Assembly: GCF_048403405.1 (NCBI RefSeq)
Contig: NZ_CP183129.1
DNA length: 64,000 nt
Source: Escherichia coli
GTDB taxonomy: Bacteria > Pseudomonadota > Gammaproteobacteria > Enterobacterales > Enterobacteriaceae
Direction: 5' to 3' (one strand)
Numbering within the stretch: the first letter of the stretch is position 1; each line of letters opens with the position of its first letter. The position numbers are program-made. Positions 36,701-39,700 of this stretch are shown here, in pieces.

Positions 36701-39700
36701 ATGCAGGATCCCCGTCCGATTTTTGACTGGCAGCAGGTGATTCGGAAAAAAGGGATTGTATATGTCGGGCTGGATGCGTTATCGGATGCGGAAGTGGCGG
36801 CAGCGGTGGGGAATTCCATGTTTGCGGATTTGGTCTCGGTAGCCGGGCATATTTATAAATTCGGGACTCAGGATGGACTGCCGGAGGATGAGCACGCCGG
36901 AAAATTACCGATCAGCCTGCATTGCGATGAATTTAATGAACTGATGGGGGATGAATTTATTCCGTTACTGAACAAGAGCGGCGGCGCGGGGATTGAAGTG
37001 ACGGCCTACACACAGACCTGGTCTGATATTGAAGCCCGGCTGGGGAATGCGGCGAAATCGGCGCAGGTCACCGGTAACTTTAATACGCTGGTGATGTTGC
37101 GTGTCCGTGAACTGATGACCGCGAAATTACTGACGGAACAGTTACCGGAAGTGGATATTTACACCAAAACCCTGGTATCCGGGATCACCGATATTTCCAA
37201 TCCGAGGCAGGGGAGTGATTTTACCTCCAATACCCAGGACAGGGTCAGTATGGTGGCTAAACCGCTGCTGTTACCGGCAGATATTATTCAGTTACCGAAA
37301 GGACAGGCGTTTGCGCTGCTGGAAGGCGGGAAGTTATGGAAAATCAGGATGCCCCTGCCGGCGGCAGAGGCTGATGCCCTGATGCCACCGGATTTACAAA
37401 AAATCGCACAGTATATGGAGAAAAATTACCGTACCGGCGAAACTTGGTGGACTGCGTCATCATTTTCGGATGCGCGGTATGACAGCGGCGGTATGAATGT
37501 GGCTGAGATGGCACCGGATACCGAAGGGGGCAACGATGGCAACTGCTGAGGTACGTCAGGAAACCCCGCGTCACCCGGCAAAAGACCCCGGTTTGCCGGC
37601 TAAATTGTTGTGGCACTGGCCGTGGGCCATCATCGGGGTATTACTGGCCTCCTGGGTATGCAGTCTGTTGATTGAGTGGGTCGGGATTGCGTTTTTCTGG
37701 GCGGACGAAGGGGCGGAGCACAGCCGGCAGGTGATGTTAACCGAGAGCGGGTATCTGTCAGAAGGGTTTACCCGTAGTCTGCTGATGTCCAGTCCGGCGC
37801 AGTGGCTGGCTCATACCGTTGAACAGGCATACCGGTGGCTGTTTGTGGAGTCCGGGCTGATGGAGAGCTGGCAGAACGTGTATCCTGTCAGCGGGAATGC
37901 AGTTGCCCGTGAACTGGATGACTGGCGGATTTGGTTTGTGTCCGAGCTGAGAGACTATCTGCTGGCGACGGTTTATGTGACGCTGACCTTTTTTATCCGG
38001 GTGACTATTCTGGTGCTGTCGATGCCCCTGTTTGTTATGGTGCTGTTGGTGGGCATGGTGGAAGGCTTTAACCGGCGTGATTTGCGGCGTTATGGTGCCG
38101 GGTATGAATCCAGTTTTGTGTATCACCACGCCAAGCGTTTTGTTAAGCCGGCCTTTTTTGTTCCGTGCATGATTTATCTGTCCTGGCCGTCTGCCATTTA
38201 CCCTAATCTGGTGTTGTTACCGGCGGCTCTGTTGTTCGGGCTTGCGGTGGCAGTGGCTACCGCGTCATTTAAAAAATATTTATAGGCGCTGGGCAGAGAC
38301 ACACAACACTTGTTTTTGTGTGTCTCTGTCAGCAGACAAGCGGCTAGGCCGCGCGTCAGTGGTGTGATGGGGTTATCCTGCGCTGATTGATGGATTGATG
38401 AGTGTGAGCAGTAAATAAAGTGGCGGGTTGTCTGTCGTGATGAGTTGCCAGCCACATTGTGTCAGCAGTTCAGCTAGTGCGGCGATATCACCTCCGATTT
38501 TTACAGGTAGGTGTGCGGTCTGATGACCGTCAGTATCAAAAGCCTGCTCCAGTGCATTTTTGGATAAACAGATGGTGTTGCTGAGCGTATCCGGGCTCAC
38601 CGCATGTCGTCTGTGCCACGATTTATCACTCAATAACTGATAGGCAAAGCCTGCCTCCTTGGCCGATTCAAGCGCATAAGTGAGCCGGAACAGATCGCTC
38701 TGCTCGTGTAATGCGCCTGTACAGGAGCGGTACAGATAATCCAGTTTTTGTGGCAGTTTGGCCCGGCTCCCCAGTGTACGTCCCTGTTGAAGCAGCCAGT
38801 CAATATCCGGCGTAACGTCACGGTCAAAACGGCGTTGCTTTTTGGCGGTTGCCAGCCAGCGTATTAAAAACAGGTTTTTCTGCATGTCGGACTGCACCAG
38901 CCCCTCCCTGCGGGCCAGATGCAGGGCAACCAGTGCACACCAGGCAAAATGCCCAGTTTTTCGGGTGATGGTCTGACTCATAGGCTCACTTTTATTTATT
39001 CATTTCAGCTATTTTCGCAAAAAGCAAGCAATATAAAATTAAAAAATTTGGAAAACTAATTGTTTGCTGTTTTTTCTATCCGCCTTTTTTACCCTGACTC
39101 CACGTTAACCGTCTTTAAGGAGTCGTTATGCGATTATTTTCTCCGCTTATTTCCCTGTTTGCGTTGGTTGTCAGTGCATTTGGGGTATTGCCTGCTCAGG
39201 CCGCTGAAAAAGATGAACTGGCGCTGACGTTAAAGCAGCTCGATCACATCCAGGCCAGCCTGGAGCGCGCCCGTATTCAGGCAAATCAGGACAATCACGC
39301 CCGTTTTTATTTTGATTATTCCCGCGCCTCCAGAGAGGTGGAGATTATCCGGCAGGGGATTGTCCGCTATCTGGAGCCTTCCCGGGCCCAGCCCACGGTG
39401 CCGGTTAATGTGGCGGAGCCGCTGCGCGGGGATTACCGCCGGGAGCAGCGATGAATCCGTCACAGCAGGCGGCATTTGAGGCTGCTGCCGGCTCGGGGAT
39501 GTCTCCGGCTGTTCTGAATCTGTTGTGTATCGGGGCATTACTGGCGGTGCTGTTTTTATGGGCAGCCTGGGGACTGGTCGATGTTTACCGGGGCTGGGCA
39601 AATGAAAATGTTCGTACTGCAAGGGTGGGGCAGTTTGCTGTCCGGGCAGTGATATTACTGGTGGTCTGCATCTGGATGTTTGCCAGTTGAGTGTGCTGTT

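What the first reader, a model, noticed from the sequence alone, without database searches (positions are those of the whole stretch)
38373..39127. Single opposite-strand gene and AT-rich divergent region splitting the conjugation module
All T4SS genes from 31704 to 54419 are on the plus strand except this 202-aa ORF. It is followed by a 146-bp AT-rich region that probably holds the promoter for the downstream transfer genes, the position where transfer regulators usually sit.
Basis: inference. Interest (0 to 1): 0.25.

Follow-up and report, generated by a model that had tools for sequence, protein, structure and literature searches.

The report
Cargo gene splitting ICE transfer operons
The lone opposite-strand gene inside this mobile element's DNA-transfer machinery is most likely an optional passenger gene of unknown function (DUF2913) sitting in a known 'cargo slot', and the AT-rich DNA beside it most likely holds the promoter of the second transfer operon; the layout is ordinary for this element family.

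Summary
A 202-aa minus-strand ORF (38373-38981) and a 146-bp spacer with about 30% GC interrupt the plus-strand T4SS genes of ICEPm1, an MPF_G integrative conjugative element (ICE) of the ICEclc/SPI-7 family.

- **The gene is real.** It matches Pfam DUF2913 and has dN/dS of about 0.23.
- **It is probably not a transfer regulator.** It has no DNA-binding domain or known fold. Sister ICEs carry unrelated genes at this junction, or nothing, including an 89%-identical E. coli ICE. In ICEclc the equivalent opposite-strand ORF (orf67800) lies outside the transfer regulon, and deleting it did not affect transfer.
- **The promoter idea is supported, without expression data.** The spacer has a core conserved whatever the cargo. 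Its ATTGTTTGC matches the BisDC-dependent ICEclc P67231 motif at the same 59-60 nt from the RAQPRD start codon. An exact GGAAAACTAATT box recurs upstream of pilL. A conserved hairpin ends the upstream operon. BisDC-like genes (ParB family plus DUF2857) lie elsewhere in the element.
- **Side lead.** DUF2913 occurs on 4.5% of plasmids, and 13 of 28 non-ICE copies sit tail-to-tail with an Rpn nuclease-toxin gene.

Its biochemical function remains unknown.

The parts
37497..38285 (+). TIGR03747/DUF4400 (DtrJ-like) membrane protein gene, the last gene of the upstream T4SS operon (pilL...traD-TIGR03747)
   Evidence: Pfam PF14348 at 5e-68 and NCBIfam TIGR03747 at 7e-96. It is homologous in position to ICEclc orf68241 (PMC10018362).
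38288..38333 (.). Strong hairpin between the two convergent stop codons. It is a probable bidirectional terminator or transcript-end structure closing the upstream operon.
   Evidence: MFE is -42.6 kcal/mol for 38280-38380, z = -3.6, and 0 of 200 shuffles fold as well. It is conserved in all ICE relatives examined for it, and 6 pairs are kept by changes on both sides in the Morganella-type locus L009. It is retained in the DUF2913-less ICE L073. The terminator scan did not call it, because there is no T-run.
38328..38359 (.). A 32-nt backbone element, GTCAGCAGACAAGCGGC-nnn-GCCGCGCGTCAG, of unknown role
   Evidence: It is invariant outside the 2-3-nt loop in the window, L007, L009, L010, L015 and L073, although flanking coding DNA falls to about 62% identity; L008 has one further change in the right arm (GTCGC for GCCGC). 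It is unique in the window, with 0 matches expected by chance.
38373..38981 (-). DUF2913 family gene (202 aa), the only minus-strand gene in the T4SS module. It is interpreted as an accessory (cargo) gene.
   Evidence: Pfam PF11140. dN/dS is 0.22-0.24. AF2 model with pLDDT 86: a helical N-terminal domain and an alpha/beta C-terminal domain, with no structural homologue. It is syntenic in ICEPm1, ICEPm2 and Morganella-type ICEs but absent from the same junction in E. coli 774 and other ICEs.
38982..39127 (.). AT-rich 146-bp divergent spacer. The left part is variable and presumably carries the DUF2913 promoter. The right part is the conserved promoter/operator of the RAQPRD operon.
   Evidence: GC is 0.29-0.32. 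By my count from alignment A2 there are about 11 differences in 146 bp against ICEPm2, while dS of the flanking genes is 0.25-0.49. No sigma-70 consensus promoter was found.
39050..39069 (+). Conserved operator-like core GGAAAACTAATTGTTTGCTG. It holds the GGAAAACTAATT box (39050-39061) and ATTGTTTGC (39059-39067).
   Evidence: ATTGTTTGC is identical to the 3' part of the ICEclc P67231 motif (…CCTATTGTTTGCA, -59 bp from the start codon), and here it ends 59-60 nt before ATG 39128. AATTGTTTGCTG is kept in L009, L059 and L073 despite different or absent cargo. GGAAAACTAATT occurs exactly twice in 64 kb.
39083..39096 (+). Second conserved block, CCTTTTTTACCCTG, a possible weak -10 region (TACCCT)
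   Evidence: It is conserved as CyTTTTTAmCCT in the window, L008-L010, L009, L059 and L073. Assigning it as a -10 element is inference.
39128..39454 (+). RAQPRD family gene, the first gene of the downstream T4SS operon, preceded by the Shine-Dalgarno sequence AAGGAG (39117-39122)
   Evidence: Pfam PF09686 at 1.2e-23 and TIGR01690 at 6e-29. It is homologous to ICEclc orf67231, the first gene behind P67231.
31621..31632 (+). Second exact copy of the GGAAAACTAATT box, 83 nt upstream of the pilL start codon (31704), at the head of the first T4SS operon
   Evidence: The nearby TTCCTATTG also matches the ICEclc P67231 motif.

Best explanation
The finding is the junction between the two transfer operons of ICEPm1, an MPF_G integrative conjugative element (ICE) of the ICEclc/PAPI-1/SPI-7 family.

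**Upstream operon.** It runs pilL...traD-TIGR03747 and ends at a conserved hairpin (38288-38333).

**Downstream operon.** It runs from RAQPRD to traG and starts from an activator-dependent promoter in the conserved right half of the AT-rich spacer (about 39047-39104). This promoter is the counterpart of ICEclc P67231. It is probably switched on by the element's own BisDC-like pair (ParB family plus DUF2857), which is encoded outside the window.

**The slot between terminator and promoter.** It is a permissive cargo slot. In the ICEPm1/ICEPm2 lineage it holds a DUF2913 gene read divergently from its own weak promoter.

**DUF2913.** It is a real, selected, cytoplasmic two-domain protein of unknown fold. 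It is an accessory gene of mobile elements, not a transfer regulator. Its frequent tail-to-tail pairing with Rpn nuclease-toxin genes elsewhere suggests a role in conflicts between mobile elements and their hosts, such as modulation of or protection from an Rpn-type nuclease.

**Shown here:** the gene's reality, its synteny and presence/absence pattern, the conserved promoter core and hairpin, and the absence of any known DNA-binding fold.

**Inferred:** promoter activity, dependence on the BisDC-like pair, dispensability for transfer, and any link to Rpn.
For: - **Identity of the module.** The neighbours are traD, TIGR03747, RAQPRD, TIGR03758, TIGR03745 and TIGR03750. The window matches ICEPm1 as found in E. 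coli, P. mirabilis and P. stuartii (PMC11278526).
- **Variable slot.** The junction holds DUF2913 in L007, L009, L010, L014 and L015. It holds DUF2913 plus an Ail/Lom gene in L008. It holds unrelated minus-strand ORFs in L059, L061 and L062. It holds nothing in L063 and in E. coli 774 (L073), which is 89% identical in the flanks.
- **ICEclc analogue.** orf67800 lies on the opposite strand between orf68241 (TIGR03747) and orf67231 (RAQPRD). It is weakly and constitutively transcribed, unaffected by mfsR or bisR deletion, and its deletion did not change transfer. The site is 'permissive for gene loss'. P67231 is BisDC-dependent and carries a BisC ChIP peak (PMC9286271, PMC10018362, PMC12409273).
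- **Promoter core.** ATTGTTTGC is shared with the P67231 motif at the same distance from the start codon. The core is conserved irrespective of cargo. An exact 12-mer is shared with the pilL upstream region.
- **Hairpin.** z = -3.6, with 6 compensatory pairs.
- **Activators elsewhere.** ParB family and DUF2857 genes are present in the same ICE. BisC is a DUF2857 protein (PMC7423338).
- **DUF2913 protein.** No DNA-binding domain or structural match. dN/dS is about 0.23. It is found on 3284 of 72,556 plasmids in unrelated contexts.
- **Rpn pairing.** 13 of 28 non-ICE genomic copies are followed by a convergent Rpn gene.
Against: - There are no expression data for this element. No sigma-70 consensus promoter is detectable on either strand, and the hairpin lacks a U-run.
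- The motif match to ICEclc is 9 nt, and it rests on one promoter.
- The BisDC-like genes were seen in a matching E. coli record, not in the window itself.
- DUF2913 has been kept at this junction across deep divergence (dS is saturated against L009). It therefore benefits the element in some way, and a regulatory effect on the adjacent promoter, for example through a protein partner rather than DNA binding, cannot be excluded.
- ICEclc orf67800 was not shown to be homologous to DUF2913. It is 134 aa with 'no match'.
- In this window no Rpn gene is adjacent, so the Rpn link is extrapolated from paralogous contexts.
Confidence: 0.7

Rival explanations
1. DUF2913 is a dedicated regulator of ICE transfer. 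Transcribed divergently from the RAQPRD operon promoter, it would repress or activate that promoter, directly or through a partner.
For: - It lies divergent to a transfer promoter and shares the spacer. The candidate -35 region of its own weak promoter overlaps the GGAAAACTAATT box.
- It has been retained under purifying selection at this junction in ICEPm1, ICEPm2 and Morganella-type ICEs.
- It has a conserved basic motif, RWLATAxKQRRF.
Against: - Close and distant sister ICEs carry other genes or nothing at the junction yet keep the promoter core.
- The family is on 4.5% of plasmids in contexts unrelated to T4SS promoters.
- The ICEclc counterpart has no detectable role in transfer.
- Homologues of the family's known regulators are encoded elsewhere in the element.
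Confidence: 0.1
2. DUF2913 works with or against Rpn (YhgA-like) nuclease toxins. It could be an accessory subunit, a regulator or a protective factor. The solo ICE copy would then protect incoming ICE DNA, or the host, from an Rpn nuclease, either the ICE's own or a resident one.
For: - 13 of 28 non-ICE genomic copies, and 16 of 36 loci overall, have a convergent Rpn gene within 600 nt. No other neighbour recurs.
- The stop codons overlap by 4 nt in L011, L069 and L077.
- The pairing persists down to about 55% identity in both proteins, with partial co-divergence (Mantel r = 0.42; 185 of 5000 permutations reach it).
- Rpn proteins are toxic antiphage nucleases whose activation is unexplained (PMC10400941).
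- ICEPm1 carries an Rpn gene about 50 kb away.
Against: - Half of the copies, including this one and the very common pKpQIL copy (paired with a ProQ/FinO gene), have no adjacent Rpn.
- The convergent arrangement means the two are not co-transcribed.
- Rpn already has its own intragenic antitoxin.
- The linkage could reflect co-mobilisation rather than function.
- There is no PADLOC hit and no interaction evidence.
Confidence: 0.2
3. The ORF is a decaying or spurious reading frame, and only the intergenic promoter matters.
For: Some family members elsewhere are frameshifted or split. The junction is empty in some ICEs.
Against: - The frame is intact over its full length and is 100% identical in P. 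mirabilis, P. stuartii and E. coli copies.
- dN/dS is 0.22-0.24 against orthologues that are 68-80% identical.
- There are 34 invariant residues across 43 homologues.
- The AF2 model is confident, with pLDDT 86.
Confidence: 0.02

Closest known systems
ICEclc orf67800 / P67231 junction (Pseudomonas ICEclc, the model MPF_G ICE)
   Same: The gene order is the same: traD, TIGR03747, one opposite-strand ORF, then a promoter and the RAQPRD gene heading the T4SS operon. Both sites tolerate gene loss among relatives. The promoter motif shares ATTGTTTGC at 59-60 nt from the start codon.
   Different: orf67800 is 134 aa with no domain match, whereas here the ORF is a 202-aa DUF2913 protein, and homology between the two was not tested. 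ICEclc is GC-rich, while here the spacer is about 30% GC. Nothing has been measured for ICEPm1.
ICEPm1 / ICEPm2 of Proteus mirabilis (described ICEs; Flannery et al., as cited in PMC11278526)
   Same: The window is ICEPm1. The protein is 100% identical in P. mirabilis ATCC 29906 and P. stuartii. The element carries the nrp iron-acquisition genes and taaP and is integrated at tRNA-Phe in E. coli CRE287. The variant that is 88% identical in DNA, found in mouse E. coli, is ICEPm2.
   Different: I found no published comment on this gene or on the promoter elements. The published module maps treat the conjugation module as a single block.
Pfam DUF2913 (PF11140), for example WP_004152389 on pKpQIL
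   Same: A clear family member. It has the same length of about 200 aa and a single-family architecture. The family was found in 556 clusters at 50% identity.
   Different: The ICE-borne clade is only 51-59% identical to the plasmid copies. It lacks their usual neighbours: a convergent Rpn gene, an upstream ProQ/FinO gene, or an upstream ORF of about 130 aa.
Known transfer regulators of MPF_G ICEs (BisDC, BisR, AlpA, TprA/NdpA2)
   Same: Like them, it is encoded on the ICE.
   Different: Those are ParB-like plus DUF2857, LysR, AlpA-HTH, RHH and YejK-type proteins. DUF2913 has none of these domains, and the ParB, DUF2857 and AlpA homologues sit elsewhere in the element.

Membership tests
Pfam DUF2913 (PF11140) | The whole-protein score is above the curated gathering threshold | tested here: met
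   61.9 bits against a cut-off of 23, E 9.4e-17, residues 16-176 of 202. The protein also matches PHROG 15786 at 1.9e-70.
MPF_G (ICEclc/ICEHin1056/SPI-7-type) ICE conjugation module | The signature genes traD (TIGR03754), TIGR03747, RAQPRD, TIGR03758, TIGR03745 and TIGR03750 are present in conserved order | tested here: met
   All are above their NCBIfam cut-offs and in the order found in ICEclc.
ICE transfer regulator (BisDC / AlpA / TprA / LysR types) | A recognisable DNA-binding domain (HTH, RHH or ParB) or homology to a known regulator | tested here: not met
ICE transfer regulator (BisDC / AlpA / TprA / LysR types) | Conserved with the transfer module across the ICE family | tested here: not met
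   It is replaced by unrelated ORFs or absent in L059, L061, L062, L063 and L073, and in other E. coli ICEs with a shorter junction.
ICE transfer regulator (BisDC / AlpA / TprA / LysR types) | Deletion or overexpression changes transfer frequency or transfer-gene expression | not testable with these tools
   This needs genetics in ICEPm1. The positional analogue in ICEclc showed no effect (PMC10018362).
Permissive cargo slot of MPF_G ICEs (orf67800-type site) | An opposite-strand ORF between the TIGR03747 gene and the RAQPRD-operon promoter, with presence or absence varying among relatives | tested here: met
   Position. Variation. Literature description of the site.
BisDC-dependent transfer-competence promoter (P67231 type) | Lies immediately upstream of the RAQPRD gene and carries the shared promoter motif | tested here: inconclusive
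   The position criterion is met. A 9-nt identical core, ATTGTTTGC, lies at the same distance from the start codon. The full 27-nt MEME motif or 15-nt BisC consensus could not be scored, because the figure and supplement are not held.
BisDC-dependent transfer-competence promoter (P67231 type) | The element encodes the activator pair BisD (ParB-like) and BisC (DUF2857) | tested here: met
   A ParB family protein (1650 bp) and a DUF2857 protein (591 bp) are close together in the parA-dnaB-parB-DUF2857 order in the matching E. coli CRE287 ICE, outside the window. BisC is a DUF2857 protein.
BisDC-dependent transfer-competence promoter (P67231 type) | Activated by BisDC, with a transcription start mapped in the spacer | not testable with these tools
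   No expression data are available. No sigma-70 consensus was found, as expected for an activator-dependent promoter.
DUF2913-Rpn tail-to-tail module | A convergent Rpn (PF04754) gene immediately 3' of DUF2913 | tested here: not met
   Here the 3' neighbour is the TIGR03747 gene. The ICE's Rpn gene is about 50 kb away and only 48% identical to the plasmid-type Rpn.

The most novel reading that the evidence does not exclude
DUF2913 may be an unrecognised partner of Rpn (YhgA-like) nuclease toxin-antitoxin/antiphage modules. It could be a third component that senses, regulates or neutralises the nuclease. Solo copies kept in conjugative elements (ICEPm1, pKpQIL) would then serve as portable protection against Rpn-type nucleases during or after transfer. 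A testable structural corollary is that the invariant H11, C15, C87 and near-invariant C176 form a metal site.
Probability: 0.2. Interest if true: 0.6.

Novelty: new member of a known kind. Interest (0 to 1): 0.3.

Why it matters
- **For annotating the element.** The ICEPm1 conjugation module should be read as two operons separated by a terminator, a cargo slot and an activator-dependent promoter. That matches the experimentally dissected ICEclc. The real transfer regulators should be sought in the ParB/DUF2857/AlpA region, not at this junction.
- **For experiments.** The conserved boxes GGAAAACTAATT and ATTGTTTGC give concrete targets for testing whether the BisDC mechanism extends to enterobacterial ICEs that spread virulence and iron-uptake genes among uropathogens.
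- **More broadly.** DUF2913 is an uncharacterised protein carried by about 1 in 22 sequenced plasmids, including pKpQIL-type KPC plasmids. Its repeated tail-to-tail pairing with Rpn nuclease toxins is a cheap, testable lead to its function.

Tried and rejected
- **Consensus scans.** The sigma-70 promoter and intrinsic-terminator scans of 38000-39500 found nothing. A relaxed scan gave only weak candidates of 7-8 of 12 matches.
- **Sigma-54.** Reading by eye, the GG-to-GC spacing does not fit a sigma-54 promoter, so I rejected it.
- **Repeats.** A search for repeats and inverted repeats in the spacer gave only short chance-level pairs.
- **RNA families.** An Rfam scan of 38000-39500 at E up to 1 gave no match.
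- **Defence and literature.** PADLOC gave no hit. A literature search for DUF2913 found only list entries.
- **32-nt element.** I first took it to belong to the DUF2913 3' flank. I corrected this when the DUF2913-less ICE L073 was found to keep it.
- **Distant homologue contexts.** L065 to L068 were uninformative.
- **BisS site.** The ICEclc bisS sequence (GAGCTATCCCCnGGGGATAGCTC) does not resemble the 32-nt element when compared by eye. No formal search was run.
- **ECOR13.** I could not establish whether the experimentally studied RpnP2 plasmid gene of ECOR13 has a DUF2913 neighbour.
- **BisC consensus.** The supplements of PMC12409273 are not held, so the BisC consensus could not be compared.
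Full report
**1.

The minus-strand ORF at 38373..38981 (202 aa, ATG start) is present as described. 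The spacer from its start codon to the next plus-strand gene, 38982..39127, is 146 bp. Its GC content is 0.29-0.32, against roughly 0.5-0.6 on either side. A 2.3-kb stretch around the ORF is 100% identical to the chromosome of E. coli CRE287. In that record's annotation, every CDS from the PilL-domain gene (window 31704) to the TraG-domain gene (end 54419) is on the plus strand except this one.

**2. What the surroundings are**

The neighbouring genes are, in order:

| Window position | Gene |
|---|---|
| 35321-37549 | traD (TIGR03754) |
| 37497-38285 | TIGR03747/DUF4400 |
| 38373-38981 (minus) | the ORF |
| 39128-39454 | RAQPRD |
| downstream | TIGR03758, TIGR03745, TIGR03750 |

This is the signature order of the MPF_G T4SS of ICEs in the ICEclc/ICEHin1056/PAPI-1/SPI-7 family.

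The element also carries an NRPS/PKS iron-acquisition cluster and the taaP adhesin gene inside the T4SS block. In CRE287 it sits next to tRNA-Phe, with an integrase and a TraI relaxase at that end. The ORF's protein is 100% identical in Proteus mirabilis ATCC 29906 and Providencia stuartii. The window is therefore ICEPm1. The 88%-identical variant found in mouse E. coli (CP010221 and others; L010) is the element published as ICEPm2 (PMC11278526). The DNA matched 26 of 5426 complete E. coli genomes and no plasmid.

**3. The ORF is a real gene of an uncharacterised family**

- It matches Pfam DUF2913 (PF11140) at 61.9 bits against a cut-off of 23. It has no NCBIfam match.
- There are 744 homologues with E of 1e-3 or better in the large protein collection, all about 200 aa. 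They fall into 556 clusters at 50% identity with no domain fusions.
- An alignment of 43 homologues has 34 invariant residues. These include H11, W14, C15, R41, W42, K48, Q49, R51, F52, C87 and W178.
- Against orthologues in sister ICEs, dN/dS is 0.22-0.24, which indicates purifying selection. The gene evolves faster than traD (0.05-0.07).
- The AlphaFold2 model is confident (pLDDT 86). It shows five helices at residues 2-109, followed by an alpha/beta domain at 113-193.
- In particular there is no HTH, RHH or ParB-type DNA-binding domain.
- PADLOC has no match. PHROGs has a family of unknown function.
- The literature held here mentions DUF2913 only in gene lists.

**4. The junction is a cargo slot, not a regulator's seat**

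DUF2913 sits at exactly this junction, on the opposite strand, in ICEPm2-type loci (L007, L010; 80% aa identity). It does so in a Morganella-type ICE as well (L009; 60%). In L008 (68%) an Ail/Lom outer-membrane-protein gene has additionally been inserted.

Other ICEs of the same family carry something else there:

| Locus | Content of the junction |
|---|---|
| L059 (Providencia type) | a 174-aa plus 59-aa pair |
| L061 (Xenorhabdus) | a 79-aa ORF |
| L062 (Yersinia) | a 230-aa plus 142-aa pair |
| L063 (Yersinia, identical TIGR03747 protein) | nothing, only a 196-bp gap |

Most tellingly, E. coli strain 774 has an ICE 89% identical in the flanking genes whose junction is a 285-bp gap. The hairpin, the 32-nt element and the promoter block are all retained, and only DUF2913 is missing. 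Several more distant E. coli ICEs show a junction about 480 bp shorter.

The experimentally dissected ICEclc has the same layout. orf68241 (TIGR03747) is followed by an opposite-strand orf67800 (134 aa, no match) and then orf67231 (RAQPRD). orf67800 is transcribed weakly in the whole population and is unaffected by mfsR or bisR deletion. [quoted passage not shown] Its deletion has no detectable effect on transfer, and the site is described as 'permissive for gene loss' (PMC9286271, PMC10018362).

In PAPI-1 the transfer regulators are an RHH protein (TprA) and a YejK-like protein. In ICEclc they are BisR, AlpA and BisDC. BisD is ParB-like and BisC is a DUF2857 protein. The ICE studied here encodes a ParB-family protein and a DUF2857 protein in the parA-dnaB-parB-DUF2857 order, outside the window. 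It also has an alpA gene with a truncated DUF2857 fragment near window position 3700-4000.

**5. The AT-rich spacer most likely holds the promoter of the second T4SS operon**

*The upstream operon ends structurally.* The 87 bp between the convergent stop codons contains a 13-18-bp hairpin (38288-38333). For 38280-38380 the energy is -42.6 kcal/mol, z is -3.6, and 0 of 200 shuffles fold as well. The hairpin is conserved in relatives, and in L009 six pairs are kept by changes on both sides. It has no U-run and the terminator scan did not call it.

*The right half of the spacer is constrained.* By my count from alignment A2, ICEPm1 and ICEPm2 differ at about 11 of 146 positions, while flanking genes have dS of 0.25-0.49. 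None of those differences falls in 39047-39077 or 39083-39103.

*The core survives whatever lies upstream.* AATTGTTTGCTG-N14-CyTTTTTAmCCT is preserved in L009, in L059 (different cargo) and in L073 (no cargo).

*The core matches a validated promoter.* The published motif of the ICEclc P67231 promoter is GTCACTGCGGGTTCCTATTGTTTGCA, placed 59 bp from the start codon of the RAQPRD gene. The window has ATTGTTTGC at 39059-39067, ending 59-60 nt before ATG 39128. P67231 is BisDC-dependent and coincides with a BisC ChIP-seq peak.

*A box is shared with the first operon.* The 12-mer GGAAAACTAATT occurs exactly twice in the 64-kb window, both on the plus strand. One copy is at 39050. The other is at 31621, 83 nt upstream of the pilL start codon at the head of the first T4SS operon. 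The pilL region also contains TTCCTATTG, another piece of the P67231 motif.

*No consensus promoter is present.* No sigma-70 consensus was found on either strand. That fits an activator-dependent promoter. A strong Shine-Dalgarno sequence, AAGGAG, precedes the RAQPRD gene.

For DUF2913 itself, only a weak candidate promoter exists. Its -10 element is TATATT at 39035-39030, and its -35 region would overlap the shared box. All statements about promoter activity are inferences, because no expression data exist for this element.

**6. DUF2913 elsewhere**

A tblastn search finds the family on 3284 of 72,556 plasmids. Of these, 2068 are from Klebsiella and 2296 are typed as conjugative. One Hafnia plasmid has five copies. 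The contexts are accessory regions. In pKpQIL-type plasmids the gene overlaps an upstream ProQ/FinO-family gene downstream of repA.

The one recurrent neighbour is an Rpn (YhgA-like, PF04754) gene in convergent orientation immediately 3' of DUF2913:

- 13 of 28 non-ICE copies from a one-genome-per-species collection have it.
- 16 of 36 loci overall have it.
- Annotated examples have stop codons overlapping by 4 nt: L011, L069, and the decayed chromosomal pair in E. coli ATCC 8739, L077.
- Pairs span 55-100% identity in both proteins and co-diverge partially (Mantel r = 0.42; 185 of 5000 permutations reach it).

Rpn proteins are toxic DNA endonucleases with an intragenic antitoxin. At least one plasmid copy defends against T-even phages, and how they are activated is unknown (PMC10400941). 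I found no report of the DUF2913 association. In the window no Rpn gene is adjacent. The ICE's Rpn gene lies about 50 kb away and is only 48% identical to the plasmid type.

**7. Verdict**

Its promoter inference is well supported by comparative and literature evidence. Its hint that the ORF is a transfer regulator is not supported.

The locus is an instance of an already described architecture of MPF_G ICEs: terminator, permissive cargo slot, then an activator-dependent promoter. Here it occurs in an already described element, ICEPm1. What is new is modest:

- the specific conserved boxes that link ICEPm1 to the BisDC-type promoter logic;
- the natural presence/absence series for DUF2913;
- the DUF2913-Rpn pairing as a lead to the function of a very common plasmid gene.

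Confidence is about 0.7 for the architectural explanation. It is low, about 0.2, for any specific biochemical role of DUF2913.

Noticed in passing
window 38328-38359: A 32-nt element, GTCAGCAGACAAGCGGC-nnn-GCCGCGCGTCAG, is invariant outside its 2-3-nt loop in nearly all ICE relatives examined, including L009 (coding DNA about 62% identical) and the DUF2913-less ICE L073; L008 has one further change. It is more conserved than any neighbouring gene. Its role is unknown: terminator stem, protein site or recombination boundary.
   Followed up: partly
window 31621-31632 and 39050-39061: The exact 12-mer GGAAAACTAATT occurs only twice in 64 kb. Each copy is about 80 nt upstream of the first gene of a T4SS operon (pilL and RAQPRD). 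It is a candidate shared operator.
   Followed up: partly
L069 2998-4556; L011 1-967; L077 3498-4407; L003, L004, L020, L023, L028, L033, L034, L038-L042, L045, L071: DUF2913 and Rpn (YhgA-like nuclease toxin) genes form a recurrent tail-to-tail pair, often with stop codons overlapping by 4 nt. The pair occurs on plasmids and in genomic islands of many Enterobacterales. I found no report of it in the literature held here.
   Followed up: partly
L070 2460-3618; L075 2209-3367 (pKpQIL-type plasmids): On pKpQIL-type KPC plasmids, DUF2913 overlaps an upstream ProQ/FinO-family gene. This looks like a two-gene operon downstream of repA, and it is a second recurrent context.
   Followed up: no
L073 3395-3681 (E. 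coli strain 774): An ICE 89% identical in the flanks has an empty junction with no DUF2913. It amounts to a natural knock-out that could be compared for transfer ability.
   Followed up: yes
L059 4774-5471; L062 4904-6085; L008 6680-7228: Other cargo found in the same slot: a 174-aa plus 59-aa pair that looks like a GNAT-type toxin-antitoxin pair (a guess from reading the sequence, not searched), a 230-aa plus 142-aa pair with no Pfam hit, and an Ail/Lom outer-membrane-protein gene.
   Followed up: no
window 35321-37549 vs L001 17923-20150: traD is an intact 742-codon frame in the window, as in P. mirabilis ATCC 29906. It is annotated as frameshifted in the otherwise identical E. coli CRE287 copy, so that copy may be transfer-defective.
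   Followed up: partly
window about 1400-4000 (by collinearity with NZ_CP166757 4056553-4059355): An alpA gene is followed by a DUF2857 (BisC-like) gene that is cut off after about 114 nt by IS3 and IS110 insertions. A second, intact ParB-family and DUF2857 pair lies outside the window.
   Followed up: partly
window 31179-31532: An IS200/IS605 tnpA-like ORF, annotated as a pseudogene in the matching record, sits immediately upstream of the pilL promoter region. It lies between the TonB-dependent receptor gene and the T4SS module.
   Followed up: no
window 47367-49655: The trimeric autotransporter adhesin gene taaP is embedded, co-oriented, in the middle of the second T4SS operon. It looks like another cargo insertion inside the conjugation module.
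   Followed up: no
L074 3569-4145 (E. coli 32-4) and many other E. coli chromosomes: A chromosomal DUF2913 gene, split into two CDSs, lies inside a sugar-utilisation cluster. The matching 97-nt stretch is seen in dozens of E. coli chromosomes among the rows sampled.
   Followed up: no
NZ_CP139993.1 (Hafnia alvei plasmid; L011): A single 156-kb plasmid carries five DUF2913 matches. One is paired with an Rpn gene and one lies next to cbpA-cbpM.
   Followed up: no
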